Source: an uncultured Desulfobacterales bacterium
GTDB taxonomy: Bacteria > Desulfobacterota > Desulfobaccia > Desulfobaccales > 0-14-0-80-60-11
DNA length: 64,000 nt
Reading direction: 5' to 3'
Assembly: GCA_964480485.1 (NCBI GenBank)
Contig: CAYZOP010000007.1
Coordinates: forward strand, 3,914-67,913
Shown: positions 26,832 to 45,643 of the stretch, one piece after another
Layout of the letters: each line of letters starts with the position of its first letter
Position numbering within the stretch: the first letter of the stretch is position 1
Notes under the pieces: model-generated
Databases searched by the model: none
The model's input: only the letters and a program-made list of their open reading frames with translations
Told to the model about the DNA's origin: nothing
Position numbers and translations under genes: made by a program

Positions 26832-26846
26832 CGTCGTGGCCTCCCT

Positions 26847-30095: not shown

Positions 30096-30374
30096 TTAGG
30101 CTGAATCGACCAATTCGCTTAATTCTTTACCGACTTTGAAAAAGGGCAGCTTCTTGCCTCCCACCTCGATGACATCCCCGGTCTTGGGATTCCGCCCTTT
30201 ATAGCCGTTGTAAAATTTGACCTTGAAGCTGCCGAAGCCGCGGATTTCGATGCGCTCATTTCTCACCAGGGCCTCCGCCATGTTCTCGAACATGGCGTTG
30301 ACCACCAGTTCCGCTTTCTTCAGGGTGAGGTTTTCAGCCTTGGCCAAGGCCTCAATGAGCTGAGACTTGTTCAT
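30096..30374 (-). CDS. HU/IHF-family DNA-binding protein
   Basis: MNKSQLIEALA...RIEIRGFGSF...GRNPKTG. The start is taken at ATG 30374, inside track ORF 30096..30413. Confidence 0.88.
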   Translation of the reverse strand: MNKSQLIEALAKAENLTLKKAELVVNAMFENMAEALVRNERIEIRGFGSFKVKFYNGYKGRNPKTGDVIEVGGKKLPFFKVGKELSELVDSA

Positions 30375-30576
30375 CCAGCACCACTCCTCGGAGGGATTTG
30401 CGGAGGCCCGCATGGAGCCGGGGCAGGCCGCCAGGGCTAATTATTCCAAATATTAAATAAAATCGGTTTGCGGGTAAAGAAAAAAATTGCGGCCCCGAGG
30501 CGGACCCTTTACAGCCGATTTCCCGGATGGTAGGCTGGCCACTGGCCCTGAAAGGCCGCTTCCACCGAGGAGCACC

Positions 30577-31638: not shown

Positions 31639-31653
31639 TGGCACGGCCCTTGC
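31639..31653 (+). promoter_or_regulatory. Sigma54 (RpoN) promoter
   Basis: TGGCAC-GGCCC-TTGC matches the TGGCAC-N5-TTGC consensus exactly. It lies 68 nt upstream of the ATG at 31721. Confidence 0.7.
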
Positions 31654-31720
31654 TTTTAATCAAGAGCAAGCGGGAATCCAAAGCAGGTTTCTTTCACTGC
31701 TCGAACAAGGAGACCAGACC

Positions 31721-32629
31721 ATGTCCCGGCAAGATAATCAGGAACACCGTGGCCAGGAACGGCCCCAAATGACCGAAGTCTTCGGGTTTCAAGTGCCCAC
31801 CAGCGGATATTACCTGCACCGGGGACATGCCTGGGCCGTTATTGAGGCAGACGGCCACGTGCGGGTGGGGCTGGACGATTTCTCTCAGAAAGTCCTGGGG
31901 CCCGCCGATGCGGTCAAGCTGCCCGAAATCGGCAAAGCCTATTATCAGGACCACATCTGTCTGACCCAGGTGCGCCAGGGCCACAAGGCCCCCTTTCTGG
32001 CCCCGGTGGACGGCACGGTGGAGGCGGTCAACCAGTCTATTTTGAAACGCCCCGCCCTGATCCATGAAGACCCCTACAAAGAAGGCTGGCTCTTCACGGT
32101 TCGGCCCACCAACCTGAAGCGTAATCTGGAAAACCTGCTCTATGGCGAAGCCAGTGTGGCCTGGATCGACGAGGAATCCCACCGCCTGCTGCATCTCATG
32201 GAAACCAAGGTGGGGGTTACCCTGCCCAGCGGCGGTGCCTTCGTGGATGACATCTACGGCCACTACCCCTCCTTGGGGTGGCGTCCCCTGGTCCAGGACC
32301 TGTTTTTACCCATCCTGACCAGGACCTGGAGAAAACGGCCGTCGGCGCTGGAGGCCAGGGATATCGAGGAACTGCGCCGGGAGGTCTTTCGGGTCTTGAG
32401 CCGGGCGTCGGAAGATCGGGATTTTCGGATCGCCCTGATGGACCTCCGGACCGAGGTCCTGGACGCCTACCGGCTGCCCCCCGAAGCCAAGACCGCCATC
32501 CTGGCGGGTGATTTGACCTGGCTGAACGAGCATATCGGCGATCTTACCCAGAAACAGCTGATGTTCATCCTGTCCTGCCTGCTTCCGGGCAATGCCTTCT
32601 TTCGGGGCAAGGCGGCCAGGGCCAGCTGA
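31721..32629 (+). CDS. GcvH-like domain protein with conserved extension and helical tail (paralog 1)
   Basis: AAGGAGA RBS. Residues from about 30 to 140 align without gaps to the glycine-cleavage H fold (HAWA...VGLDDF....LG......LPEIG.........APVDG.V..VN.......P..I..DPY..GWLF). The lipoyl-Lys column is Gly. Confidence 0.75.
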   Translation: MSRQDNQEHRGQERPQMTEVFGFQVPTSGYYLHRGHAWAVIEADGHVRVGLDDFSQKVLGPADAVKLPEIGKAYYQDHICLTQVRQGHKAPFLAPVDGTVEAVNQSILKRPALIHEDPYKEGWLFTVRPTNLKRNLENLLYGEASVAWIDEESHRLLHLMETKVGVTLPSGGAFVDDIYGHYPSLGWRPLVQDLFLPILTRTWRKRPSALEARDIEELRREVFRVLSRASEDRDFRIALMDLRTEVLDAYRLPPEAKTAILAGDLTWLNEHIGDLTQKQLMFILSCLLPGNAFFRGKAARAS

Positions 32630-33039: not shown

Positions 33040-36000
33040 ATGAATTCCAGCGGCTCTCCATCTGAAAGACACGGGGCGGTGTTGGTGGTAGGCGGCGGCA
33101 TCGCCGGGATCCAGGCAGCTCTGGACTTGGCCGATGCCGGGTTTTTCGTTCATCTGGCGGAGCAGAGCGCCGGCATCGGCGGCGCCATGGCCCAGTTGGA
33201 CAAAACCTTCCCCACCAACGACTGCGCCATGTGAATTATTTCGCCCAAGCTGGTCGAGTGCGGTCGGCACTTGAACATTGAGCTGTTGACGCTCACGGAA
33301 TTGGCAAGCCTGGAGGGAGAGGCGGGAAATTTCACCGCGACCCTGAGGAAAAAGCCCCGCTACGTTGACCTGGACAAATGCATCGGCTGCGGCCTGTGCG
33401 CCGAAAAATGCCCCAAAAAGGCGCCGGATGAATACAACCTGGGCCTGGCCAGGCGCAAAGCCATCTATGTGAAATACAGCCAGACGGTCCCCCTGAAATA
33501 CGCCATCGACCCGGAGACCTGCATCTACTTCAAAAAGGGCACCTGCAAGGCCTGCGAGAAGCATTGTCCCGCCGGCGCCATCAAACTGGACGACCAGGAG
33601 GAACGGCTCATCCGGAAGGTGGGAGCCGTGGTCCTGGCCACCGGTTTTCAGCCTTACAACCCAAAGGTCCTTACCGGCTACGGCTACGGCAGCCATCCGG
33701 CGGTGGTCACCAGCCTGGAATTCGAGCGCATCCTGAGCGCCTCCGGGCCCTTCGGCGGTCATCTGGTACGGCCGGCGGACCACGCCGAACCCAAGCGCAT
33801 CGCCTGGCTGCAGTGCGTCGGTTCCCGGGACACCAAGCCGGAGTCGCACACCTACTGCTCCGGCGTTTGCTGCATGTACGCCATCAAACAGGCGGTCATC
33901 GCCAAGGAGCATGCCGGCGGCCACCTGGACACCACCATCTTCTTCATGGACATGCGCACCTATGGCAAGGATTTCGAGCGTTATTACGAAAACGCCAGGG
34001 ACGGCCTGGGGGTGCGGTTCGTCCGCTTCCGGGTGCATTCCGTGGACCCTCTGGGTGGGGACCGCAAACAGGTGCGCATCACTTATTTGGAGGAGGACGG
34101 CACCCCCAGGCAGGAGCTATTCGACTTGGTGGTGCTCTCCATCGGCCTGGAGCCTGCCGCTGACACCCAGGCGCTGGCCGGGAGGCTGGGCGTGGAACTG
34201 GACCGTCATGGGTTCATCACCGCCAGCTCCTTTGCCCCGGTGGCCACCAGCCGTCCGGGGGTGTACGTCTGCGGCGCCTTGGCCGGCCCCAAGGACATCC
34301 CCTATTCGGTGATGGAGGCCTCGGCGGCGGCCGGGGCGGCGGCCAGTACCCTCAGCGACCAGCGCTTCACCCAGGTCCTGGAGAAGACCTACCCGGCGGA
34401 GCGCGACGTGACCCAGGAACCCCCCCGCATCGGGGTTTTCGTATGCAATTGCGGCATTAATATCGGCGGGGTGGTGGACGTCCACCAGGTGGCCGAATAT
34501 GCCCGCACCCTGCCCCAGGTGGTGCACGTGGAGGAAAACCTTTACACCTGCGCCCAGGACACCCAGGACCGCATGAGTGAAATCATTGCGGAACAAGGCT
34601 TAAACCGGGTGGTGGTGGCCGCCTGTTCGCCCCGGACCCACGAGGCCTTGTTCCAGGAAACCCTGAACAATGCCGGCCTGAACAAGTACCTCTTCGAGAT
34701 GGCCAACATCCGCAACCACGATTCCTGGGTGCATGCCCAGACCCCGGACTTGGCCACTCAAAAAGCCAAGGACCTGGTGCGCATGGCGGTGGCTAAAGCG
34801 GCGCTCCTAGGTCCCCTCACCGAGGCGGAGTTGCCGGTGACCCAAAGCGCCCTGGTGGTGGGCGGCGGTGTGGCCGGCATGACCTCGGCCCTCACGCTGG
34901 CCCGACAGGGCTATCCGGTCCACCTGGTGGAGCAAGGCGACGTCTTGGGCGGCGCCGCCCGGCGGCTGTTGGCCACCTACCGGGGTGAGGAGGTGGGGGC
35001 TTTCGTGGACCGGCTGACCGCCGAGGTTTCGGCCGAACCCCAGATCACCGTGCACCTCCAAAGTTCCCTGACAGAAGTCCAGGGGTTTGTGGGCAACTTT
35101 CAAACCAGCCTTAAGACCCCTTCAGGGCCGGTCACCATCCCTCACGGCGTGGCAGTGCTGGCCACCGGGGCCAAGGAATACCGGCCCCAGGAATACCTCT
35201 ACGGCGACCACCCCGGGGTGGTGACCCAACTGGAGCTGGACGAACTGCTCCGCCGGGAGGACCCCCGGCTGAATGGGCTGGAGAGCCTGGCCTTCATTCA
35301 GTGCGTGGGCTCCCGGGACGAACAGCACCCTTACTGCTCCAAGGTCTGCTGCACCCACTCGGTGAAGGCCGCCCTGGAGATCAAGCGTCGCCGGCCCGAA
35401 GCGGCGGTGACCATCCTGTATCGGGACATGCGGACCTACGGGCCCCGGGAGGACCTCTACATCGCCGCCCGGGAGGAGGGCGTGCTGTTCGCCCGCTACT
35501 CCCTGGACCGGAAACCCACGGTCAGTGAGGAGGACGGGCGGCTTTCTCTGAAGTTTGTGGACCCCATCCTGGGACGGGCGGTGGCGTTGCCGGTGGATCT
35601 CCTCTGCCTGGCCGCGGCCATCGAATCCCACCACGACCAGCAGTTGGCCCAGATGTTCCGGGTGCCATTAGACGGCGACGGCTGGTTTTTAGAGGCCCAC
35701 CAGAAGCTCAGGCCGGTGGACTTTGCCAACGACGGCATCTTCCTGTGCGGCATGGCCCACTATCCCAAGCCCCTGGAGGAAAGCATCGCCCAGGCCCAGG
35801 CGGCTGCAGCCCGGGCGGCCACGGTGCTGTGCAAGAGCAGCATCCGGGTGAGCGGGTTGGTGTCCCGCATCACCCCGGAACTCTGCTGCGGCTGCCAGAT
35901 CTGTGTCAATGTCTGCCCCTATCAGGCCATCAGCTATGACGAGGGCCGGGGGGTGGCCATGGTGAACGAGGCGTTGTGCAAGGGGTGCGGGGCCTGCGCT

Positions 36001-36087
36001 GCCGCCTGCCCCTGCGAGGCCCCCCTGCTTATGGGGTTCACCCATCGTCAGTTGTATGCCCAGATCAAGAATGCCCTAGCGTTTTGA
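33040..36087 (+). CDS. hdrA: HdrA-like heterodisulfide reductase subunit A, selenocysteine-containing, extended (about 1015 aa) two-Rossmann form
   Basis: Track ORFs 33040..33234 and 33271..36087 share one frame. The TGA at 33232-33234 sits in [30 protein letters not shown], the HdrA Cys/Sec site. There are two GxGxxG motifs ([24 protein letters not shown]) and several 4Fe-4S CxxCxxCxxxCP motifs. A GGGAGG RBS is present. Confidence 0.9.
33232..33273 (+). promoter_or_regulatory. Candidate SECIS hairpin after the hdrA UGA
   Basis: CGAGUGC-GGUCG-GCACUUG (7-bp stem, 33255-33273). The loop contains GGUC and starts 27 nt after the UGA, further than in fdhF. Confidence 0.4.
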
Positions 36088-36107
36088 CCGCCGATGGAGG
36101 AGGCGTC

Positions 36108-36617
36108 ATGGAAGAAAGACCATTTGAGCCTAGACTGCTGGCATTTGTCTGCAACTGGTGCGCCTACGGCGCCGCAGACCTGGCCGGGGTGAGCCGGCTG
36201 CAATACCCGGCCAATGTCCGGCTGCTTCGGGTCATGTGTTCCGCCACGGTGTCGCCGCACCACATCCTCAGGGCCTTGCAGAGCGGGGCCGACGGTATCC
36301 TGGTGGGCGGCTGACACCTGGGGGACTGCCATTACCTGTATGGTAATCACATGACGCAAAAAAGGATGCTGTTCTTGCAGGATTTCTTATCCTTTGTGGG
36401 CCTGGGAGGGAGGTTGCGCCTGGAATGGATCTCCTCGGCCGAGGCCAACAAGTTTGTCCAGGTCGTCACTGAATTCACCGAGCAGATTCGCCGCTTGGGG
36501 CCCAGCCCCCTGCGCACCGGCCAGGAGGCGTTGGCCGCTCTGCACCTGCCGCCGGTCTCGGAGGCCGCCGGCCGGGCTGCCTGCCCCTGCGGCCACGCAC
36601 CCCAGGTGGTGGTATAG
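36108..36617 (+). CDS. mvhD: MvhD-like (methyl-viologen-reducing hydrogenase delta) 2Fe-2S protein, selenocysteine-containing
   Basis: MEERPFEPRLLAFVCNWCAYGAADLAGVSRLQYP...ADGILVGG-U-HLGDCHYLYGN...RLRLEWISSAE. The TGA at 36312-36314 aligns with the Cys of the MvhD motif GGCHxGDCHY. Track ORFs 35976..36314 and 36351..36617 are in frame. Confidence 0.88.
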
Positions 36618-36626
36618 GTACCGCTT

Positions 36627-37445
36627 ATGGCTGAGCTACATGACACTGTGCGCGAGTGGCTGGAAAGCGGCAGGGTGGACCTCTTCCTGGGCTATCGGGA
36701 GGTGACCGGTCATCCCCTGCCTTACGCCTTTACCAAAGAAAACCTGGAGGAATTGACCGAGCTGGAAACCAGCCTGAGCCGCTATCCTTTGGAGAAACTG
36801 GCAGCCGGCATCCTGGCGGTCCAGCCCGAGCTTAAGATCGGCCTCTTGGGCCGGGACTGCAACCGTCGGGCGGTAAACGTGCTCTTGGTGCACCAGCAGG
36901 TGGCCCCGGGACAGATTGAGGTGCTGGAGGTGAATTGCTGTCCTTCGCCCTTAAAGCCCCGACCCGACTGCTCCTCGCTTTCACCCCGGACTTACGGTCC
37001 GGTGAAGCTGGCCGAGGGCATCAACAACAACCTGACGCCGGCTCAATTCGAGCAGTACGGCCAGACGGAGCGTTTTGACCGCTGGCTGTATGAATTTCAG
37101 AAGTGCCTGAAATGTTACGGCTGCCGGGATATCTGCCCGGTGTGCTTCTGCCGGGAGTGCTCCCTGGAGCATGGGGACCTGGTGGAGACCGGGGCTCTGC
37201 CACCGGAAGTGCCGCTCTTCCATCTCATCCGGGCGGTGCACATGGCGGGCCGCTGCATCGACTGCGGCCTGTGCGAGGATGCCTGTCCGGTGGACATACC
37301 CCTGCGGCTGCTGTACCGGAAAACCAATCAGATCGTCAAGGACCTGTTCGGCTACGAAACCGGCCTGAGCCTGCGGCAGCCTCCCTTCAGCCTCCTGGGT
37401 GAACGCGCCCCGGGCGGGGGCGAGGTCAAGCAGGCGGCGACCTAA
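36627..37445 (+). CDS. 4Fe-4S dicluster protein, putative electron-transfer subunit between MvhD/HdrA and FdhA
   Basis: C-terminal half: CLKCYGCRDICPVCFC...CIDCGLCEDACP. The N-terminal 150 aa or so are unassigned. Confidence 0.72.
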   Translation: MAELHDTVREWLESGRVDLFLGYREVTGHPLPYAFTKENLEELTELETSLSRYPLEKLAAGILAVQPELKIGLLGRDCNRRAVNVLLVHQQVAPGQIEVLEVNCCPSPLKPRPDCSSLSPRTYGPVKLAEGINNNLTPAQFEQYGQTERFDRWLYEFQKCLKCYGCRDICPVCFCRECSLEHGDLVETGALPPEVPLFHLIRAVHMAGRCIDCGLCEDACPVDIPLRLLYRKTNQIVKDLFGYETGLSLRQPPFSLLGERAPGGGEVKQAAT

Positions 37446-37470
37446 AGAACCGGCAGTCTGGAGAATCATC

Positions 37471-39516
37471 ATGTACAAACTGGTTCCTTCGGTATGTTCC
37501 TATTGCGGCACCGGCTGCGGGGTGTTGTTTCAGGTTCTGGATGGTCAGATTCTTGGGACCCTGCCGCTGAAAACCCACCCGGTGAACGAGGGCAAACTGT
37601 GCATCAAGGGCTGGAACCTGCATGAATACGTGAACAGCTTCATGCGCTTGCAAGCCCCCCGCATCCGCATCAACGGGCGCCTGCACCAGGTTACCTGGGA
37701 CCGGGCCATCGGGTTTTGCGCCGACCGGCTCAAGAGCGTCATCGCCCAGCACGGGCCGGACAGCGTCGGAGTGCTGGCCTCGGCCAAAATCACCAACGAG
37801 GAGAACTACCTCTTGCAGAAATTCGCCCGGGCGGTGGTGGGCACCAACAATGTTGACCACTGCGCCCGCCTCTGACACTCCTCCACGGTGGTAGGTCTTA
37901 CCGCCGCCTTCGGGAGTGGGGCCATGACCAACTCCATCGCCGAGATCGAGGATGCGGGGTGCATTTTCGTCATCGGTTCCAACACTTCCGCCTGCCATCC
38001 CCTCATCGCCCGCCGGGTGCTCCGGGCCCGGGAAAAGGGGGCCAAGCTGCTGGTGGCCGACCCCCGGCGCATCCACCTAGGTCTCTTCGCCGACGTGGCC
38101 GTCAATCAGCGGGTAGGGAGCGACGTGGCCCTGCTCAATGGTCTGATGCACCTGATTCTCAGAAATGGTTGGGAGGACCGGGACTACATTGCCGAACGCA
38201 CCGAGGGCTTCGCGGAACTGGAACAGTCCCTGGCAGACTATCCGCCGGAGCGCGTCCAGGCCATCACCGGCGTCAGCCCGGCAGACCTGGAGAAGCTGGC
38301 CCGGCTTTATGCCACCCACCGGCCAGCCGCCATCCTCTACACCATGGGCATCACCCAGCACACCACCGGGGTGGACAACGTCAAGGCCATCTGTAACCTG
38401 GCCATGCTCACCGGCAACGTGGGCTTTCCCAGCTCCGGGGTCAACCCCTTGCGGGGGCAGAACAACGTCCAGGGCGCCTGCGACATGGGCGGCCTGCCCA
38501 ATGTCTTTCCCGGCTACCAGGCGGTGAACGTCCCGGATCACCATGCCAAATTTTCCAAGGCGTGGGGCCGGCCCCTGTCGGACAAGCCCGGGCTGACCAT
38601 CATGGAAATGGTCCAGGCCATCGACGCCGGCAAGATGAAGGCCCTGTACGTGGTGGGGGAAAATCCCAAACTCAGCGATCCGGACATGAACCACCTGCGC
38701 CACGCCATGCAGAAGCTGGATCTGCTCATCGTCCAGGATCTCTTTCTTTCGGAGACCGCCCAGGGCGCGGACGTGGTCTTCGCCGCGGCCTCCACCGCCG
38801 AGAAGGACGGCACGTTCACCAACACCGAAAGACGGTGCCTGCGCATCAACAAGGCTATCGAACCGGTGGGTCAGAGTTTGCCCGACTGGGAGATCATCTG
38901 CCGGCTGGCCACCGCCATGGGCTACCCCATGACCTACGGCAGCGCCGCCGAGATTTTCCGAGAGATCGCTTCCCTGACCCCCAGCTACGGCGGCATGAGC
39001 TATGAGCGCCTGGGGATTGACGGATTGCAGTGGCCCTGCCCCACCCCTGAACATCCGGGGACCACATACCTGCATCGGGACCGGTTCACCCGGGGGCGGG
39101 GGAAGTTCCACGTAATCCCGTATCAGGACCCGGCGGAGCTGCCGGATGCCGACTATCCCTTTTTCCTGACCACCGGCCGGACCTTCGTCCATTACCACAC
39201 CGGCACCATGACCCGGGTGTCAGCTCATTTGGACCGGGAGCAGCCCACAGGCTTTGTGGAAATCAACCCGGAGGACGCGGCCAGACTGGACATTCAGGAA
39301 GGAGACCACCTGCTGGTGTCCTCCAAGCGGGGACGCATCGAGGTACCGGCCCACATCAGCCACTCGGTGCTGCCCGGCAACCTGTTTCTGCCCATTCACT
39401 TCGGCGAAAACCCCACCAACGTGCTGACCAGCGCCGAGGCCCTGGACCCCCTGGCCAAAATTCCGGAGTTCAAAGTGAGCAAGGCCCGGGTGGAAAAATT
39501 GGTGGAAGCATGCTAA
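37471..39516 (+). CDS. fdhA: Formate dehydrogenase catalytic subunit, cytoplasmic, selenocysteine-containing (paralog 2)
   Basis: MYKLVPSVCSYCGTGCG 4Fe-4S N-terminus with no Tat signal. The TGA at 37873-37875 sits in [30 protein letters not shown]. Track ORFs 37399..37875 and 37888..39516 are in frame (2046 nt from ATG 37471). Confidence 0.9.
37873..37905 (+). promoter_or_regulatory. Candidate SECIS hairpin after the fdhA-2 UGA
   Basis: GGUGGUA-GGUCU-UACCGCC (7-bp stem including one G-U pair, 37887-37905). The loop starts 18 nt after the UGA. Confidence 0.6.
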
Positions 39517-39626: not shown

Positions 39627-41921
39627 ATGAGTCCCGAAAGAAAATCCTACAACCTGGCCATAGTGGGAGCCGGCCGGCAAGGGGTGGCCATTTTGGAGGC
39701 CCTGGTGCCCCCCCGGGGCGAGGCGCAGCCCCTCAAGGTTGTGGGAGTGGCGGACTTGAACCCGGAGGCCCCCGGCATCCTGTACGCCTACCGGCATAAC
39801 CTGTTCGTCACCGTGGATGTCGCCGACCTGTTCCACCTCCCGGATCTGGATATCATCGTCAACGCCACCGGCCACCCGGAAGTCTCGGTGCAGATAGATG
39901 AGCAACAGCCGGGCAGGTTCATAGTCCTCAATGTGGACCGCCCGGTCCAGCTCGAGGACTTCTGGGACCTCATCTCCATGAACCTCTCCCCGGTCCGGGA
40001 GGATGCGCCGCTCACCGTGGGGATTGTGGGCGGCGGCAAGGGCGGCTATGAAGTCCTGCAACAACTCGCCAGGGAGCCGCGCTATCCCCAACGGGTCAGG
40101 GTCATCGGCGTGGCAGACACCAACCATGAGGCCCAGGGAATGGTTTTGGCTCGAGAGCTCCAGATTCCCATCTACACCGAGTATAGGGATCTCCTCAAGG
40201 CCGAACCGGATCTGGTGCTGGAACTTACCGGTGACCCCCGGGTGCGGGAGCGGGTTATCCAGGAAAAGGGCCCCAACACCCAGATCATCGACCACGTCAA
40301 GGCCCGGCTGTTCTGGGACCTCCTGAAGCGGGAAGAGGAGCGGTTGCGCCACCGGGTCACCCAAGAAATCAAGCTGGCCGGACAGCGCAGCCGCTTTCAG
40401 AGGATTTTCGACCACCTGCCGGACCCGGTCATCGTCTTGCGCTCCAATTACCTGGTGGAGGAGGCCAACCTGCCCTTTCTGGAACGCTTCCATAAGCAGG
40501 CCGAAGAGGTCATCGGCAGGCCGTGCTACGAGGTGTTCCATCAGTTCGAGGAACCCTGCGACCGCAAAGGCATGACCTGTCCGTTGCCCCGCGTGTTGGA
40601 GAACCATCAGACCGCCCAGGTGCTGCAGACGTCCCTTAATCCCGACGGCACCATCCGCTACGATGAGATCACCATGTCGCCGTTGTGCGTCCCGGAACGG
40701 GCGCAGAAACGGGTCATTGAAGTCATTAAAGATGTCACCGACCGCAAACAATTGGAAGCAGGGTTGCAGAAGTCGGAACAGCGGGCCCAGGAACTGCTGA
40801 CCCAGGCCATCAAGGACAAGGGGTTTTTGGAAACCATTGTCAACGGCATCGCCGATCACATGATGGTCATCGACCTGGATTACCGCATCGTGGAAGTGAA
40901 CCGGGCCCTCTTGGAGATGGTGGGACTGAAGCGCGACCAGGTGGTGGGCAAGCATTGCTACGAAGTCTCCCACCATTTGCACCAGCCCTGCACGATACCC
41001 GATCATCCCTGCCCGCTGCAGGAAGCCGTGGCCTCCGGCAAGGCCGCCTCTGCTACCCATGTGCATTTTGACAAGGAAGGCCGGGAGCGCTATTACCACG
41101 TGGTCTGTCACCCCCTGCGGGACGAACAGGGCCGCATCCACCGGGTGGTGGACCTGTCCCGGGATATCACCCGGGACGTGATAGACCGTATGCGGACCCT
41201 GCACGAAGACAAGATGGCTTCCCTGGGGAAACTGGCGGCCAGTGTGGTCCACGAGATCAACAATCCGCTCACCGGCATCCTCAATTTCGTCAAACTGATG
41301 CAAAGCATGGTGGAGACGGGGACGCCCAGCGGAGACGAGTTAAACGAGATGCGCCGCTACCTGGACATGGTGTATCAGGAGACCTCCCGGGTGAGCCGGA
41401 CCTTGGCCAACCTCCTCACTTTTTCCCGGAAGCAGAAACCGGAATTCAAGCCGCTGGATCTCAATATCGTGTTGGAAGGGGCGTTATCCCTGGTGAGCTA
41501 TCAGATGCGCCTCCAGGGCATCGCACTGGAGCGCAAGCTCACTCCTGACCTGCTGCCGGTATTGGCGGACAAGGGTCAGATGACGCAGACCTTTATCAAT
41601 CTCTTCTTGAATGCCTTTGATGCCATGCCCCAAGGAGGCCGGCTCATCCTGGAGACCAAAAACACCCGGCGCGGCGAGGTGCTGATCAAGGTCTCCGATA
41701 CCGGCAAGGGCATCCCCAAGGAGCATATCTCGCAGATCTTCGAGCCCTTCTTTACCACCAAAAAAACCTGCGCCGGTGCAGGGTTAGGGCTCTCCGTGGT
41801 CTATGGCATCATCCGGGATCACAAGGGCACCATCAAAGTGGACAGCGTGGTGGGCCAAGGCACCTCTTTTACCATTCGCCTGCCGGCTCAGAAGGTGGGG
41901 GAAGTACATGTTGCCGCATAA
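39627..41921 (+). CDS. Cytoplasmic sensor histidine kinase: tandem Rossmann-like N-terminal domains, two Cys-motif PAS domains, HisKA, HATPase
   Basis: No TM segment. GxGxxG occurs twice (IVGAGRQG, IVGGGKGG). PAS motifs CYEVFHQFEEPCDRKGMTCP and CYEVSHHLHQPCTIPDHPCP. H-box HEINNPLTG. ATPase blocks DTGKGIP and GLGLS. Confidence 0.88.
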   Translation: MSPERKSYNLAIVGAGRQGVAILEALVPPRGEAQPLKVVGVADLNPEAPGILYAYRHNLFVTVDVADLFHLPDLDIIVNATGHPEVSVQIDEQQPGRFIVLNVDRPVQLEDFWDLISMNLSPVREDAPLTVGIVGGGKGGYEVLQQLAREPRYPQRVRVIGVADTNHEAQGMVLARELQIPIYTEYRDLLKAEPDLVLELTGDPRVRERVIQEKGPNTQIIDHVKARLFWDLLKREEERLRHRVTQEIKLAGQRSRFQRIFDHLPDPVIVLRSNYLVEEANLPFLERFHKQAEEVIGRPCYEVFHQFEEPCDRKGMTCPLPRVLENHQTAQVLQTSLNPDGTIRYDEITMSPLCVPERAQKRVIEVIKDVTDRKQLEAGLQKSEQRAQELLTQAIKDKGFLETIVNGIADHMMVIDLDYRIVEVNRALLEMVGLKRDQVVGKHCYEVSHHLHQPCTIPDHPCPLQEAVASGKAASATHVHFDKEGRERYYHVVCHPLRDEQGRIHRVVDLSRDITRDVIDRMRTLHEDKMASLGKLAASVVHEINNPLTGILNFVKLMQSMVETGTPSGDELNEMRRYLDMVYQETSRVSRTLANLLTFSRKQKPEFKPLDLNIVLEGALSLVSYQMRLQGIALERKLTPDLLPVLADKGQMTQTFINLFLNAFDAMPQGGRLILETKNTRRGEVLIKVSDTGKGIPKEHISQIFEPFFTTKKTCAGAGLGLSVVYGIIRDHKGTIKVDSVVGQGTSFTIRLPAQKVGEVHVAA

Positions 41922-43254
41922 GAAGATCTCGATTTTGGTGGTGGACGACGAGCCGAGCATCCGGGAATCCCTGAGCGGCTGGCTGAAACGGGCCGGCTAC
42001 CAGGTGGACACCGCCGCCGACGGCTTCACGGCATTGGCCAAGAACCGGGAGACCCACTTCGACATCATCATTGTGGATGTCAAGATGCCGGAAATGGATG
42101 GTCTTACCCTGTTGCAGCAACTGAAGGAGAACGGCAGCGAAGCCGGCATCCTCATGATGACCGCCCACGGTGATATCCATGACGCCGTGCAGGCCATCAA
42201 GTTGGGGGCCTATGATTACCTGCTCAAGCCCTTCGAGCTGGAGGAATTATCCTTCACCATCGGCAAGATGGTGGAGATGCAGACCCTGGCCATGGAGAAC
42301 CTGATTTTAAAGGAACGCTTGGCCACCATCAGCCGCTTTGAAAACCTGGTGGGCCAGTCCCCGGTCATGCTCAAGCTGTTTGAGACCATTGTCGACGTGG
42401 CCAAGACCGACGCCACCGTCCTGATCACCGGGGAGACCGGCACCGGCAAGGAGCTGGTGGCCCGGGCCATTCACGCCCAAAGCCCCCGCTGTTATGCCCC
42501 GTTCATCGCCATCAACTGCGGCGCCTTCACCGAGCACCTGCTGGAAAGCGAGATCTTCGGACATGAAAAAGGCGCCTTCACTGACGCCAAATACACCAAA
42601 AAGGGTCGCCTGGAGATGGCCAACGGTGGCACCCTCTTCCTGGACGAAGTGGGGGACATCTCCATGAAAATGCAGATTGATCTCCTGAGGGTCCTGGAAA
42701 CCCACGAATTCACCCGGGTGGGGGGGACCACCATGCTGAAAAGCGATTTCCGGGTCATCGCCGCCACCCATCAGGACCTCAAAGAGGCCATTCGCCACAA
42801 AACCTTTCGGCAGGACCTTTTCTACCGTTTGAACGTCTTCCATATCGAGGTGCCGCCCCTCAGGGAACGACCGGAGGACATCCCGCTGTTGGCCCACCAC
42901 TTCCTGCGGCGCTATGCGGCGGAAACCAAGAAAAAGATCGATGCCATCGATAAAAAGGCGCTGGAGGCCATGAAGCAATACTCCTGGCCGGGTAATGTGC
43001 GGGAATTGGAGAATGCCATCGAACGGGCGGTGGTGGTGGGTAAGGGGCGGACCATCAAACTCTCCGACCTGCCCTTTATCACCGCCGGGGAACCTGCGGA
43101 ATACGGGGAACTTTCCCTGGAGGAAATGGAACGGCAGCATATCGCCCGGGTGCTGGCTACCAAGGGAAGGAATCTCTCCCACGTCGCCCGGGTGCTGCGC
43201 ATCAACCGCTCAACGCTTTATGAGAAGATAAAAAAATACGGCCTCACCACCTGA
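41908..43254 (+). CDS. Sigma54-dependent response regulator (NtrC family: REC-AAA+-HTH)
   Basis: ILVVDDEPSIRE receiver domain. GETGTGKE Walker A and GAFTDA (GAFTGA-type sigma54 contact loop). C-terminal Fis-type HTH. The ATG at 41908 overlaps the kinase stop by 14 nt. Confidence 0.92.
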   Translation: MLPHKKISILVVDDEPSIRESLSGWLKRAGYQVDTAADGFTALAKNRETHFDIIIVDVKMPEMDGLTLLQQLKENGSEAGILMMTAHGDIHDAVQAIKLGAYDYLLKPFELEELSFTIGKMVEMQTLAMENLILKERLATISRFENLVGQSPVMLKLFETIVDVAKTDATVLITGETGTGKELVARAIHAQSPRCYAPFIAINCGAFTEHLLESEIFGHEKGAFTDAKYTKKGRLEMANGGTLFLDEVGDISMKMQIDLLRVLETHEFTRVGGTTMLKSDFRVIAATHQDLKEAIRHKTFRQDLFYRLNVFHIEVPPLRERPEDIPLLAHHFLRRYAAETKKKIDAIDKKALEAMKQYSWPGNVRELENAIERAVVVGKGRTIKLSDLPFITAGEPAEYGELSLEEMERQHIARVLATKGRNLSHVARVLRINRSTLYEKIKKYGLTT

Positions 43255-43467: not shown

Positions 43468-44349
43468 TCAGGTGCTGTGCAGGAACTCGTGCACCAGGCG
43501 ATCCCATCCCAGTTGGGGATAGGCGCCATAGACGTCGTCCAGGATGGCGCCGCCGGAGGGCAGCGTCACTCCCGCCACAGACTCCAGCATGCCCAGGAGA
43601 CGTTGGGCCTCATGTTCTATCCAGGCGACGTTGCATTGGCCGAAGAGCATCTTTTCCAGATCCGGTTTGAGGTGGGTGGGGGAGACCAAAAAGAGCCAGC
43701 CCTCGCCATACGGGTCATCATGGATCAGGCGCGGGTTGTCCCGAATCTTGGGATTAACTGCGTCGATGATGCCGGTGAGGGGGGCCAGCACCGGGGCGGT
43801 CTTGCCCTGGCGGGAGAGCATCAAGGCTGTCTGGTCGGCGAACACCTTTTCTCCCACCTCCGGGAGGCTCACTTCCTCGGGCGGACCCAAAACCCGCTGG
43901 CAAAAATCGTCCATGCCGAGGCGGACCCGGCCGGCATTTTCCAGGGCCACCCAGGTATGTCCCCGGTGGAGGAAACTGGAGACGGGCACCATAATCCCCA
44001 TGACCTCCTGCACTCGGGGCCGCTCCGGAGCCAGAAAGAAGTCAAACTGCTCCTCCAGCAGCTCATCAAAGGAACATTCATGACAGAGGCTGGTCATCAT
44101 CAGGCGGCATTTCTGCTGGTCGCCGAAGCGCTGCCGCATCTTTTCCTCCCACGGCAGGACCTCACGATGCTCCGGGACCGGCTTCGGGCGTCCTTTCCAC
44201 TTGGCCAGGTTGGCAGCCGCAGCTTCCGTCAAGGCCCGGTCCAGCTCACAATGTTCGCAATCAAACTCTTTATCGCAGATCTTGTAGTCAATTACTCCAG
44301 CTTCCATCCAGATACAAGGCTGCCGGCTTTCGGGAAATTCATGTGCCAT
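43468..44349 (-). CDS. Cys-rich N-terminal domain fused to a GcvH-like domain (paralog 2)
   Basis: MAHEFPESRQPCIWMEAGVIDYKICDKEFDCEHCELD...CRLMMTSLCHEC, followed by a GcvH-like fold (HTWVAL...VRLGMDDF...LPEVG...APLTG...DPYGEGWLF). The start is taken at ATG 44349, inside track ORF 43468..44406. Confidence 0.75.
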   Translation of the reverse strand: MAHEFPESRQPCIWMEAGVIDYKICDKEFDCEHCELDRALTEAAAANLAKWKGRPKPVPEHREVLPWEEKMRQRFGDQQKCRLMMTSLCHECSFDELLEEQFDFFLAPERPRVQEVMGIMVPVSSFLHRGHTWVALENAGRVRLGMDDFCQRVLGPPEEVSLPEVGEKVFADQTALMLSRQGKTAPVLAPLTGIIDAVNPKIRDNPRLIHDDPYGEGWLFLVSPTHLKPDLEKMLFGQCNVAWIEHEAQRLLGMLESVAGVTLPSGGAILDDVYGAYPQLGWDRLVHEFLHST

Positions 44350-44430
44350 GGTCCTGCCCTGCCTTTCCCCTGATCTTGGGAAGGACGGGGTGCGGCGGTC
44401 TCCCACCCCGTCCCTGCCGGGTGCAAGCGT

Positions 44431-45072
44431 TCATTGTCTTCCCTTCCAGGTTCTCTTGTCCCAGTTGTCCCAGCCCTCAAAACCGCGCCGCGTTGAGGGA
44501 GTGGTCAGGTTCCGCAGGAAGAACCCCTGGACCAGCCGCCGCCAGCCCAACGCCGGGAAATGGCCGAACACGTCATCGACGATGGTCCCGCCATCTTGCA
44601 GGGTGTAGCCCACTTTGGTATCCAAAAGTTCCAGCAGGCGGTGGGTTTCCTCGTCGATCCACGCGGCGTTGTCCTGCCCATAGCACAGATTGAACAAGTT
44701 TTGCTGGAGATTGATGGGCCTCATGTGGAAGAGCCAGCCCTCGCCGTACGGGTCGTCATGGATCAGAGCCGGCTTCTCCCGAACCCGCTCATTGATCTCG
44801 GTGACCATGCCGTCCACCGGGGCGACGAAGGAGGCCTTGCTGCCATGCCGGAGCAGGGCCATGCAAATGTGGTCCTGATAATAGACCTTGCCCACTTCCG
44901 GCATCTGAATGCCGTCGGCCGGTCCCAGGATCTTCTGGGAAAAATCATCTAGACCAACCCGCACCAGGTCCGTCTTTTCCACCACGGCCCAGGCATGGCC
45001 CCGGTGCAGATAATAGGTCTCGGTGGGTACCCGGAACCCGAAGACCTCCGCCATGTTGGTAGGGGTTTTCAT
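44431..45072 (-). CDS. GcvH-like domain protein (paralog 3)
   Basis: The first 180 aa or so are by eye about two-thirds identical to the 31721 product (MAEVFGFRVPTETYYLHRGHAWAVVE...). A GGAGGG RBS is present. Confidence 0.78.
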   Translation of the reverse strand: MKTPTNMAEVFGFRVPTETYYLHRGHAWAVVEKTDLVRVGLDDFSQKILGPADGIQMPEVGKVYYQDHICMALLRHGSKASFVAPVDGMVTEINERVREKPALIHDDPYGEGWLFHMRPINLQQNLFNLCYGQDNAAWIDEETHRLLELLDTKVGYTLQDGGTIVDDVFGHFPALGWRRLVQGFFLRNLTTPSTRRGFEGWDNWDKRTWKGRQ

Positions 45073-45109
45073 GTCTTTTCCCTCCTCTGGGGGTTTGATT
45101 CGGGAGAGA

Positions 45110-45124
45110 GCAATGAGCGTGCCA
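45110..45124 (-). promoter_or_regulatory. Sigma54 (RpoN) promoter
   Basis: The minus strand reads TGGCAC-GCTCA-TTGC. It lies 38 nt upstream of the ATG at 45072. Confidence 0.7.
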
Positions 45125-45133
45125 GTCCCTGGT

Positions 45134-45153
45134 TATCGGCTAACTAACCGATA
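45134..45153. promoter_or_regulatory. Inverted repeat TATCGG-ctaactaa-CCGATA adjacent to the sigma54 promoter
   Basis: Perfect 6-bp arms located 10-30 nt upstream of the -24 element, followed by an AT-rich tract. Confidence 0.35.
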
Positions 45154-45398: not shown

Positions 45399-45473
45399 TG
45401 GAGGCGGCAACCGGATTCGAACCGGTGTATAACGGTTTTGCAGACCGTTGCCTTACCACTTGGCTATGCCGCC
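45399..45473 (-). tRNA. tRNA-Cys (GCA), CCA encoded
   Basis: Reverse strand: GGCGGCAUAGCCAAGUGGUAAGGCAACGGUCUGCAAAACCGUUAUACACCGGUUCGAAUCCGGUUGCCGCCUCCA. It folds as a cloverleaf with anticodon loop CUGCAAA. Confidence 0.93.
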
Positions 45474-45483
45474 CCAAAATAAA

Positions 45484-45558
<75 letters not shown>

Positions 45559-45643
45559 TCGTGCAGTGTTTATTTTTTGTAAAATCATCCGGCTTGTCAA
45601 GGAGAAAAATGCATTGATGCGGCTCCCGCCCTTGCCGGGGAGT

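What the first reader, a model, noticed from the sequence alone, without database searches (positions are those of the whole stretch)
43468..44349. Seven-Cys N-terminal module fused to a GcvH-like domain
The first 110 aa or so of this paralog carry C-x12-C-x5-C-x2-C (CIWMEAGVIDYKICDKEFDCEHCELD). A second group follows, C-x8-C-x2-C (CRLMMTSLCHEC). These precede the lysine-less GcvH-like fold. The spacing suggests an Fe-S or zinc site. Fusing such a module to a carrier-like fold, next to a bifurcating HdrA module, would be consistent with a redox-active adaptor. I cannot assign the Cys module to a family from memory.
Basis: partly seen in the sequence, partly recalled or inferred. Interest (0 to 1): 0.7.

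Follow-up and report, generated by a model that had tools for sequence, protein, structure and literature searches.

The report
New Cys4 module on lysine-less GcvH
This is a real, conserved gene in which two copies (one truncated) of an undescribed four-cysteine metal-binding-type module sit in front of a glycine-cleavage-H fold that has lost its lipoyl-lysine. Across anaerobic bacteria the gene travels with a sigma-54 two-component system and with HdrA-type redox enzymes, so it probably marks an uncharacterised accessory of those enzymes.

Summary
Window 43468-44349 (-) encodes a 293-aa protein with seven N-terminal Cys, invariant in about 120 full-length homologs. A GcvH fold follows in which Gly182 replaces the lipoyl-lysine. 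One correction: the second group is C-x7-C-x2-C, not x8.

The "seven-Cys module" is a tandem repeat of a ~35-aa Cys4 unit, C-x12-C-x5-C-x2-C-x-[FY]-D. The second copy has lost 11 residues and one Cys; Desulfobacca-type relatives keep 8 Cys.

No Pfam, NCBIfam or PDB family matches it, and the model has no structural neighbour. It still occurs in 1067 protein-cluster representatives. Its homes are lysine-less GcvH-like proteins, REC-TPR response regulators, a TPR histidine kinase, and stand-alone TPR proteins beside two-component systems.

The gene and a Cys-less paralog have a perfect sigma-54 promoter. So does a third paralog heading the HdrA(Sec)-MvhD-FeS-FdhA(Sec) operon. A PAS kinase and sigma-54 regulator lie between them.

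Of 73 related loci, 57 keep the regulator and 32 keep HdrA. GcvH-like domains are fused to HdrC (4 loci) and to HdrA (1).

Best reading: a non-lipoylated, metal-binding adaptor between Hdr-type complexes and their sigma-54 control system. Metal identity and redox activity are untested.

The parts
43468..44349 (-). Target gene: 293-aa protein made of a Cys4 module, a truncated Cys3 copy, a lysine-less GcvH fold and a C-terminal extension
   Evidence: ORF and sequence. 120 full-length homologs. Public sources name it 'glycine cleavage system H lipoate-binding protein', which is a misnomer.
44218..44331 (-). Cys4 module, repeat 1 (aa 7-44): C12-x12-C25-x5-C31-x2-C34-x-L-D
   Evidence: Scores 78 bits against the repeat-1 profile. 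AlphaFold pLDDT is 83-95 with the diverse alignment. C12, W14, C25, C31 and C34 are invariant in 77 diverse sequences.
44047..44124 (-). Truncated repeat 2 (aa 76-101): C81-x7-C89-x2-C92-S-F-D. An 11-residue deletion removed the hairpin half and the second Cys.
   Evidence: Aligned with 8-Cys relatives such as P0098 (CRHMLTGRVPAHFCGNNYLCHRCEFD). Only aa 89-101 still match the module profile. C81, C89 and C92 are invariant.
43645..43998 (-). GcvH-like barrel-sandwich domain (aa 118-235) with R180-x-G182 where H-proteins have E-S-V-K
   Evidence: Pfam GCV_H E=1.7e-19. Foldseek hits to H-proteins with TM about 0.9. Lipoyl-Lys aligns with Gly182.
43471..43644 (-). Conserved C-terminal helical extension of about 58 aa (aa 236-293), shared by all three paralogs in the window
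   Evidence: pLDDT 69-92. Conserved motifs AW-E-E, TLPSGG, DDV-G and LGW-RLV. No significant family match.
44431..45072 (-). Cys-less GcvH-like paralog (213 aa), upstream in the same transcription unit
   Evidence: Pfam GCV_H E=5e-20. Gly at the lipoyl position. A paralog lies immediately upstream in 32 of 73 related loci.
45109..45124 (-). Sigma-54 promoter TGGCACgctcaTTGCT, 37 nt upstream of the paralog's ATG
   Evidence: One of only two perfect matches in 64 kb, where 0.09 are expected. The equivalent site is perfect in 36 of 77 related loci and has at most one mismatch in 50 of 77; gene-body controls have none with two or fewer mismatches. It is also present in a different phylum (L094).
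41908..43254 (+). Sigma-54-dependent response regulator (REC, AAA+, HTH_8), convergent with the target gene
   Evidence: Pfam Sigma54_activat E=4e-70. Found within 4 kb of the target's ortholog in 57 of 73 loci.
39627..41921 (+). Cytoplasmic histidine kinase: Rossmann-like N-terminus, two PAS domains, HisKA, HATPase
   Evidence: Pfam. Present in 56 of 73 loci. Each PAS domain carries C-x4-H-x5-C-x6-C-P.
31639..31654 (+). Second perfect sigma-54 promoter, TGGCACggcccTTGCT, ahead of the hdr operon
31721..32629 (+). Third lysine-less GcvH-like paralog (302 aa), first gene of the hdr operon
   Evidence: Pfam GCV_H E=7e-20. 53% identical to the target's GcvH part. Gly at the lipoyl position.
33040..39516 (+). 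HdrA (in-frame TGA at 33232), MvhD (TGA at 36312), Fe-S protein (36627-37445), FdhA (TGA at 37873): a putative formate-linked HdrA module with no HdrBC
   Evidence: Translations and TGA codons. Pfam. No HdrB or HdrC homolog in the window.

Best explanation
Composition and transcription. The gene encodes a cytoplasmic accessory protein built from (i) a tandem of a previously undescribed Cys4 module, the second copy reduced to three Cys, (ii) a GcvH fold that cannot be lipoylated, and (iii) a family-specific C-terminal extension. It is transcribed with a Cys-less paralog from a sigma-54 promoter. The adjacent PAS kinase and sigma-54 response regulator most likely control that promoter. The same promoter type drives the third paralog plus HdrA(Sec)-MvhD-FeS-FdhA(Sec).

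Most likely mechanism. The GcvH-like domain is a docking domain for HdrA/HdrC-type subunits. This is inferred from fusions and operon position. Each Cys module holds one metal centre, either Fe-S or a Zn-thiolate. This is inferred from conservation only. The protein then acts as a connector or sensor that couples the state of the Hdr/Fdh electron-bifurcating machinery to its dedicated two-component system, rather than as a simple electron wire. This last step is inferred from the module's other homes.

Shown versus inferred. Shown: gene, repeat anatomy, conservation, loss of lysine, sigma-54 promoters, synteny, fusions, domain census. Inferred: metal binding, docking, and the direction of information or electron flow.
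For: Anatomy and conservation:
- Seven Cys are invariant.
- The repeat structure is shown by 8-Cys and single-module relatives. A profile built from repeat 1 alone finds repeat 2 at 17-31 bits.

No lipoylation:
- Gly182 sits at the lipoyl position.
- That column is Lys in 1 of 79 module-bearing proteins.

Regulation:
- The window has two perfect sigma-54 promoters against 0.09 expected.
- The site is conserved upstream of the gene cluster in 50 of 77 loci with at most one mismatch, against none in controls.
- It is also perfect in candidate division B38.

Synteny:
- RR54 is nearby in 57 of 73 loci, the kinase in 56, M54 peptidase in 43, HdrA in 32.
- The quartet of kinase, M54, RR54 and Cys8-GcvH recurs in another phylum with a HydS-like kinase.

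Link to Hdr:
- The pair directly follows hdrC-hdrB with no promoter of its own in about 10 loci.
- GcvH::HdrC is a single ORF in L006, L025, L028 and L030.
- HdrA::GcvH fusion lies beside a 4x-module GcvH gene in L095.

Signalling homes of the module:
- REC-TPR-Cys8 in 11 of 142 representatives, and TPR-Cys8-histidine kinase.
- REC-TPR-Cys8 lies beside a kinase and a sigma-54 regulator.
- Stand-alone TPR-Cys8 lies beside REC-GerE plus a PAS kinase.

Precedent: an Fe-S redox sensor within a sigma-54 system in the same phylum is OrpR (PMC8359166).
Against: - No metal, cluster or interaction has been measured.
- The module has no fold or family match, so Fe-S, Zn and a thiol switch cannot be told apart.
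- The AlphaFold model of repeat 2 is only moderate, pLDDT 61-67.
- The gene has its own sigma-54 promoter, so it is a target of the regulator. That fits an induced enzyme subunit as well as a feedback connector.
- The window itself lacks HdrB, HdrC and the M54 peptidase.
- I found no shared upstream activator site between the two promoters.
- Synteny counts rest on tblastn labels and on contigs of unequal length.
Confidence: 0.42

Rival explanations
1. Electron-transfer subunit. The Cys modules bind one or two Fe-S clusters that wire electrons between the HdrA/Fdh complex and a partner. The GcvH fold serves only as the anchor.
For: - The gene sits in the hdr operon after hdrCB in about 10 genomes.
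- GcvH-like domains are fused to HdrC and HdrA.
- In L007 a short Cys4-GcvH variant sits in a NrfC-NrfD (Fe-S/membrane) cluster.
- Three-Cys coordination, as in repeat 2, is common for [4Fe-4S] clusters (established knowledge).
- All hosts identified are anaerobes.
Against: - The motif is not any known ferredoxin-type motif, and no Fer4 family matches.
- The module's other architectures are REC, kinase and TPR proteins, not redox enzymes.
- In Syntrophobacterales and B38 the gene stands alone beside the two-component system, often with no Hdr within 10 kb.
Confidence: 0.25
2. Structural zinc fingers. Each Cys4 unit binds Zn and serves only as a protein-protein (or nucleic-acid) docking module, with no redox role.
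For: - Four Cys per autonomous unit, with single, double and quadruple copies.
- The last two Cys lie at the N-terminus of a helix in the model, as in many Zn sites.
- Frequent pairing with TPR repeats, a protein-interaction fold.
- Weak, non-significant similarity to zf-CHY.
Against: - Repeat 2 has lost one ligand in most of the 120 close homologs, with no obvious replacement specific to that subgroup. Structural Zn(Cys)4 sites tolerate this poorly.
- No Zn-finger family or fold match.
- So far seen only in anaerobic lineages.
Confidence: 0.17
3. Protein thiol/disulfide substrate. The Cys-rich N-terminus cycles between dithiol and disulfide and is the physiological 'heterodisulfide' handled by HdrB-like subunits, by analogy with DsrC and DsrK.
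For: - The gene directly follows hdrB in many loci.
- The physiological disulfide substrate of bacterial HdrB is unknown (established knowledge).
- LbpA, another GcvH-like protein, is the substrate carrier of sulfur-oxidising Hdr (PMC6067878).
Against: - The window and many other loci have the gene but no HdrB.
- A rigidly spaced Cys4 repeat with invariant Trp and Gly looks like a metal site, not a flexible dithiol arm.
- The module also occurs in REC and kinase proteins.
Confidence: 0.08
4. Ordinary lipoate carrier, a GcvH or LbpA as public annotation says.
For: Pfam GCV_H match and source names.
Against: - Gly replaces the lipoyl-Lys in all three window paralogs, and Lys is present in only 1 of 79 relatives.
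- The score of 62.6 bits is far below the NCBIfam gcvH cut-off of 115.85.
- All 95 LbpA proteins keep the lysine (PMC6067878).
Confidence: 0.02

Closest known systems
LbpA lipoate-binding proteins of the sulfur-oxidising sHdr system (Cao et al. 2018, PMC6067878)
   Same: Both are GcvH-fold proteins encoded in or beside hdr-like gene clusters, often as two paralogs in tandem, and are not part of glycine cleavage.
   Different: - LbpA has a strictly conserved lipoyl-lysine and dedicated lipoate ligase and radical-SAM maturation genes. Here the lysine is Gly.
- This protein carries an N-terminal Cys4 tandem and a C-terminal extension.
- The hosts are anaerobic Desulfobacterota and others, not sulfur oxidisers.
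Canonical glycine-cleavage H-protein (PF01597 / TIGR00527)
   Same: Same fold, TM about 0.9. It keeps the H-E-W-type N-terminal motif and the DPY-GW motif.
   Different: - No lipoyl-lysine.
- Scores below the equivalog cut-off.
- Extra N- and C-terminal domains.
- Neighbours are regulators and Hdr, not gcvT or gcvP.
Fe-S-based redox sensing in sigma-54 systems: OrpR of Desulfovibrio vulgaris (PMC8359166)
   Same: Same phylum, also a sigma-54-dependent system, and also a Cys-ligated sensor. OrpR uses three Cys for a [4Fe-4S] cluster.
   Different: In OrpR the Cys lie within a PAS domain of the activator itself. Here a separate protein carries a new non-PAS module, and nothing has been measured.
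Auxiliary regulators of sigma-54 activators encoded in the regulated operon (PspA/PspF, NifL/NifA); from my own knowledge, not tested here
   Same: A protein expressed from a sigma-54 promoter next to its activator gene could feed back on that activator.
   Different: There is no sequence or fold relation, and an interaction with the activator is purely hypothetical.
DsrC, protein-thiol partner of the HdrD-like DsrK; from my own knowledge
   Same: A small accessory protein with conserved Cys that partners an Hdr-type catalytic subunit.
   Different: DsrC has two Cys on a flexible C-terminal arm and a different fold. Here there are rigid Cys4 repeats, and HdrB is often absent.

Membership tests
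GcvH (glycine cleavage H-protein) | GCV_H barrel-sandwich fold | tested here: met
   Pfam E=1.7e-19 for aa 130-232. Foldseek TM about 0.9 and rmsd 1.5-1.8 A to 3ab9 and 1onl.
GcvH (glycine cleavage H-protein) | Lipoyl-lysine in the E-S-V-K hairpin | tested here: not met
   The lysine aligns with Gly182. K183 is out of register and present in only 77 of 120 homologs.
GcvH (glycine cleavage H-protein) | Reaches the curated equivalog score | tested here: not met
   TIGR00527 scores 62.6 bits against a cut-off of 115.85. NF002270 scores 66.7 against 117.
GcvH (glycine cleavage H-protein) | Genomic partnership with gcvT and gcvP | tested here: not met
   Neighbours are mutS, tRNAs, a kinase/regulator pair and Hdr/Fdh genes. 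The whole window was not scanned specifically for gcvT or gcvP.
LbpA (sHdr lipoate-binding protein) | Strictly conserved lipoyl-lysine | tested here: not met
   All 95 LbpA proteins keep it (PMC6067878). It is absent here and in 78 of 79 relatives.
LbpA (sHdr lipoate-binding protein) | Encoded in or next to an hdr-like cluster | tested here: met
   HdrA lies within 10 kb in 32 of 73 loci. The gene follows hdrCB in about 10 loci. In the window it shares the sigma-54 promoter type with the hdr operon.
LbpA (sHdr lipoate-binding protein) | Associated LplA-like ligase and radical-SAM maturation genes | not tested
   I did not search for these. None appeared among the Pfam-annotated neighbours.
Ferredoxin-type [4Fe-4S] domains (Pfam Fer4 clan) | C-x2-C-x2-C-x3-C(P) motif and a profile match | tested here: not met
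   The motif is C-x12-C-x5-C-x2-C. No Fer4 hit at E up to 10 on the N-terminus or on 142 module-bearing proteins.
Known zinc-finger or zinc-ribbon families | Profile or fold match to a described Zn-binding domain | tested here: not met
Tandem Cys4 module family (defined here) | C-x12-C-x5-C-x2-C-x-[FY]-D with Trp at +2 and Gly at +6, usually in two copies about 55-75 residues apart | tested here: met
   Repeat 1 scores 78 bits. Repeat 2 retains 3 of 4 Cys after an 11-residue deletion. The family has 1067 representatives at E of 1e-3 or better.
Sigma-54 regulon member | -24/-12 element TGGCAC-N5-TTGCW upstream, and an enhancer-binding protein nearby | tested here: met
   Perfect element at 45109-45124. 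Conserved in relatives. A sigma-54 response regulator is adjacent.
Sigma-54 regulon member | Upstream activator site bound by the cognate regulator | tested here: inconclusive
   No shared 12-mer (one mismatch or fewer) between the two promoter regions. A palindrome at 45134-45153 is unassigned.

The most novel reading that the evidence does not exclude
The Cys4 unit is a new class of metal-thiolate (Fe-S or Zn redox-switch) signalling domain. Through it, two-component systems read, or directly control, flavin-based electron-bifurcating enzymes such as Hdr, Fdh and NuoEF-type complexes. The lysine-less GcvH-like proteins are the long-sought protein partners of bacterial Hdr complexes. The unit of kinase, M54 peptidase, sigma-54 regulator and Cys8-GcvH, conserved across phyla, would then be a previously unrecognised redox-control module of anaerobic energy metabolism.
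Probability: 0.2. Interest if true: 0.85.

Novelty: new variant of a known kind. Interest (0 to 1): 0.68.

Why it matters
- Bacterial HdrABC/HdrA-MvhD complexes are widespread in sulfate reducers and syntrophs, but their physiological partners and regulation are largely unknown.
- This locus defines three things together: a conserved, non-lipoylated GcvH-like protein family physically tied to HdrA and HdrC through fusions; an undescribed Cys4 domain with more than 1000 cluster representatives, shared with response regulators and a histidine kinase; and a dedicated sigma-54 regulatory unit.
- That gives concrete, clonable candidates for how anaerobes sense and tune electron bifurcation.
- It also corrects a widespread mis-annotation as 'lipoate-binding H protein'.

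Tried and rejected
- Family assignment of the N-terminus. I tried Pfam at E up to 10 on the window protein, distant relatives and 142 representatives, NCBIfam and a PDB sequence profile. Nothing matched.
I used the full-length alignment instead.
- A shared activator site between the two sigma-54 promoters was not found.
- Literature searches on GcvH-like plus Hdr, sigma-54, sulfate reducers, Syntrophobacter and archaemetzincin found no description of this family.
- Rejected readings: a wrong start codon (conserved N-terminus); a lipoate carrier; a single seven-Cys site (it is a 4+3 repeat).
Full report
**The gene and the observation**

The minus-strand ORF 43468-44349 (ATG at 44349) encodes 293 aa. 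The N-terminal 100 residues contain C12-x12-C25-x5-C31-x2-C34 and C81-x7-C89-x2-C92. The second is x7, not x8.

A search of 5.8 billion proteins returned 465 relatives. The best 120 are 56-100% identical over essentially the full length and begin at the same Met. The start codon and the N-terminal region are therefore real.

All seven Cys are conserved in 111-119 of the 120 sequences. The exceptions are almost all truncated entries, plus two single substitutions. In a later alignment of 77 much more diverse sequences (20-62% identity), the only invariant columns are these seven Cys and W14.

**The carrier-like domain**

Pfam finds GCV_H at aa 130-232 with E=1.7e-19. The NCBIfam gcvH equivalog score is 62.6 bits, far below its cut-off of 115.85.

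AlphaFold models aa 111-293 with pLDDT 82-95. The model superposes on E. coli, Thermus and other H-proteins with TM about 0.9.

In HMMER alignments to solved H-proteins and in a MAFFT alignment, the lipoyl-lysine aligns with Gly182. The hairpin reads R-Q-G-K instead of E-S-V-K. K183 is one position out of register and present in only 77 of 120 homologs.

The two other GcvH-like paralogs of the window, 44431-45072 (-) and 31721-32629 (+), also have Gly there. Among 79 module-bearing GcvH-like proteins from several phyla, the column is Lys in one.

'Lysine-less' is therefore a family trait. The public name 'lipoate-binding protein' is wrong. All three paralogs share a conserved C-terminal extension of about 58 residues with no family match.

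**What the seven-Cys region is**

Relatives resolve it into a tandem repeat.
- Desulfobacca-type homologs carry two full copies of C-x12-C-x5-C-x2-C-x-F-D, for example CIWMEAGVIDYKICHNNFDCSHCEFD and CRHMLTGRVPAHFCGNNYLCHRCEFD, exactly 69 residues apart. That gives 8 Cys.
- Other proteins have a single copy in front of the GcvH domain, for example P0153 and P0155.
- One protein has four copies, P0164.

A profile built from repeat 1 alone detects repeat 2 in 8-Cys proteins at 17-31 bits. In the window protein it aligns only to aa 89-101. The window protein, like most of its 120 close relatives, has an 11-residue deletion that removed half of the hairpin and the second Cys of repeat 2. The region is thus 4+3 Cys.

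**No known family or fold**

The module has no match in:
- Pfam, on the window protein, on distant relatives, and on 142 representatives scanned one by one;
- NCBIfam;
- PDB sequences searched with a profile.

**Distribution and architectures of the module**

A 38-position profile was searched with HMMER against 1.84 billion cluster representatives. It found 1067 proteins at E of 1e-3 or better and 530 at 1e-10 or better.

Among the best 142 representatives:
- about half are module(s) plus GcvH-like domain (65 by a family HMM, 46 by Pfam);
- 11 are REC-(TPR)-module-module;
- one is TPR-module-module-HisKA-HATPase;
- one carries a glycosyltransferase, which may be a chimera;
- the rest are short or stand-alone.

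A further search revealed a large set of stand-alone TPR-module-module proteins of about 205-245 aa.

Named members come from Desulfobacterota, Dehalococcoidia, Aminicenantes/Acidobacteriota, WOR-3 and candidate division B38.

**Genomic context of the other architectures**
- REC-TPR-Cys8 lies next to a HAMP kinase and a sigma-54 regulator (L008).
- In a Dehalococcoidia contig (L010) it lies between rpoN, a HydS-like kinase, a sigma-54 regulator and NuoE/F/G-like genes. A TPR-Cys8 kinase lies a few genes away.
- Stand-alone TPR-Cys8 genes are divergent from REC-GerE plus PAS-kinase pairs.

Outside GcvH fusions, the module is therefore consistently a signalling-associated domain.

**Context of the target gene in the window**

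Gene order on the minus strand is mutS, tRNA-Gly, tRNA-Cys, a perfect sigma-54 promoter (45109-45124), the paralog (213 aa), then the target gene.

Convergent on the plus strand are a perfect sigma-54 promoter (31639-31654), a paralog (302 aa), HdrA, MvhD, an Fe-S protein, FdhA, a PAS kinase and a sigma-54 response regulator. These two promoter matches are the only perfect ones in 64 kb, where 0.09 are expected.

The window has no HdrB, HdrC or M54 peptidase.

**Context in relatives**

A scan of one genome per GTDB species found 170 relatives. The 80 loci kept are all Desulfobacterota (Desulfobaccales, Syntrophobacterales, Desulfobacteraceae).

I labelled neighbours by tblastn. Of 73 loci with the Cys-module gene:
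- 57 have the sigma-54 regulator within 4 kb;
- 56 have the kinase;
- 43 have an M54 (archaemetzincin-type) peptidase between the regulator and the gene;
- 32 have HdrA within 10 kb;
- 32 have a GcvH paralog immediately upstream;
- 13 have HdrB.

Two arrangements recur: GcvH> GcvHCys> M54< RR< HK<, and HK> RR> M54> GcvHCys>.

A sigma-54 element with at most one mismatch lies within 350 bp upstream of the GcvH cluster in 50 of 77 loci, and is perfect in 36. Gene-body controls have none with two or fewer mismatches. The loci that lack it are those where the pair directly follows hdrC-hdrB in a long hdr operon.

The same unit occurs in candidate division B38: a HydS-like kinase, M54, a sigma-54 regulator, a perfect sigma-54 promoter, then Cys8-GcvH.

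Physical linkage to Hdr is supported by two kinds of fusion.
- GcvH::HdrC is a single ORF in L006, L025, L028 and L030.
- An HdrA-like protein with a C-terminal GCV_H domain lies next to a four-module GcvH gene in L095.

A short Cys4-GcvH variant sits with two further GcvH-like genes in a NrfC-NrfD cluster, followed by a sigma-54 regulator (L007).

**Interpretation**

Shown:
- a real, conserved gene;
- a degenerate tandem of a new Cys4 module;
- a GcvH fold that cannot carry lipoate;
- membership of a conserved sigma-54 unit;
- recurrent operonic and fusion links of the GcvH-like domain to HdrA and HdrC.

Inferred:
- each module binds a metal centre;
- the GcvH-like domain docks on Hdr subunits.

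The module's other homes are REC, kinase and TPR proteins beside two-component systems. The gene's most constant neighbour is the kinase/regulator pair. I therefore favour a connector or sensor role between Hdr/Fdh-type machinery and its control system (confidence about 0.4) over a plain electron-wire subunit (about 0.25). A purely structural zinc finger (about 0.17) and a DsrC-like dithiol substrate (about 0.08) remain open. A lipoate carrier is essentially excluded.

An Fe-S redox sensor inside a sigma-54 system of the same phylum, OrpR, is a functional precedent but not a relative.

**Comparison with known systems**

The nearest described system is the LbpA/sHdr pair of sulfur oxidisers, in which GcvH-like proteins encoded in hdr clusters are essential. 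All 95 LbpA proteins keep the lipoyl-lysine and come with lipoate maturation genes. Here the lysine is gone and a new domain has been added, so this is not an LbpA.

Literature searches found no description of lysine-less GcvH-like proteins in hdr clusters, of the Cys4 module, or of the unit of kinase, M54, regulator and GcvH.

I rate it a new variant of a known kind, namely Hdr-associated GcvH-fold accessory proteins, that carries a domain new to the libraries searched here.

**Limits**
- Nothing biochemical is known.
- The model of repeat 2 is weak.
- Synteny labels are tblastn-based and contig lengths vary.
- The regulator-promoter link is inferred from adjacency and promoter type only.

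Noticed in passing
window 33232-33234, 36312-36314, 37873-37875 (+); 28479-28481 (-): Four in-frame TGA codons sit at positions typical of selenocysteine. They are in HdrA ([14 protein letters not shown]), MvhD (LVGG-U-HLGDCHY) and two FdhA genes (HCARL-U-HS). ORF callers split each of these genes in two.
   Followed up: partly
window 39627-41921 (+), aa 300-319 and 444-463: Both PAS domains of the histidine kinase carry the same C-x4-H-x5-C-x6-C-P motif. This may be a metal or Fe-S sensing site (compare the OrpR PAS [4Fe-4S]). The N-terminus has Rossmann-like NAD-binding matches.
   Followed up: partly
window 45399-45558 (-): tRNA-Cys(GCA) and tRNA-Gly(GCC) lie between mutS and the sigma-54 promoter of the GcvH-like pair, with a sigma-70-like promoter at 45572-45600.
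   Followed up: yes
window 45134-45153: A perfect palindrome, TATCGG-N8-CCGATA, lies immediately upstream of the -24 element of the sigma-54 promoter. It is unassigned and was not found at the other sigma-54 promoter.
   Followed up: partly
window 44350-44433 (-): The 81-nt spacer between the Cys-less paralog and the target gene folds into a strong GC-rich hairpin of about -40 kcal/mol with no T-run. It could be a processing, stability or attenuation element within the operon.
   Followed up: partly
window 24984-29537 (-) and 30096-30413 (-): A second formate dehydrogenase unit is present: a NuoE/NuoF fusion plus a Sec-containing FdhA with N-terminal 2Fe-2S and 4Fe-4S domains. An HU/IHF-like gene lies next to the hdr sigma-54 promoter region.
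   Followed up: partly
L001, L005, L006, L049-L071, L094 and others: An M54 archaemetzincin-type peptidase is the third gene of the kinase/regulator operon, adjacent to the Cys-module gene, in 43 of 73 loci and in another phylum. It is absent from this window. It may process or degrade the GcvH-like protein.
   Followed up: partly
L006 7079-8170; L025, L028, L030; L095 6907-10362: GcvH-like domains are fused to HdrC (363-aa ORF) and to the C-terminus of an HdrA-like protein (GCV_H at aa 983-1100).
   Followed up: yes
L010 4310-5392 and 10001-11428; L008 377-1390; L091-L093: The same tandem Cys4 module is found at the C-terminus of REC-TPR response regulators, at the N-terminus of a histidine kinase, and in stand-alone TPR proteins. 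In every case it lies next to a two-component system. In L010 it also lies next to rpoN, a HydS-like sensor kinase and NuoEFG-like genes.
   Followed up: partly
L007 2307-7153: Three GcvH-like genes, one with a single Cys4 module, flank NrfC-like and NrfD-like genes and precede a sigma-54 regulator. The GcvH-like trio is therefore not restricted to Hdr contexts.
   Followed up: no
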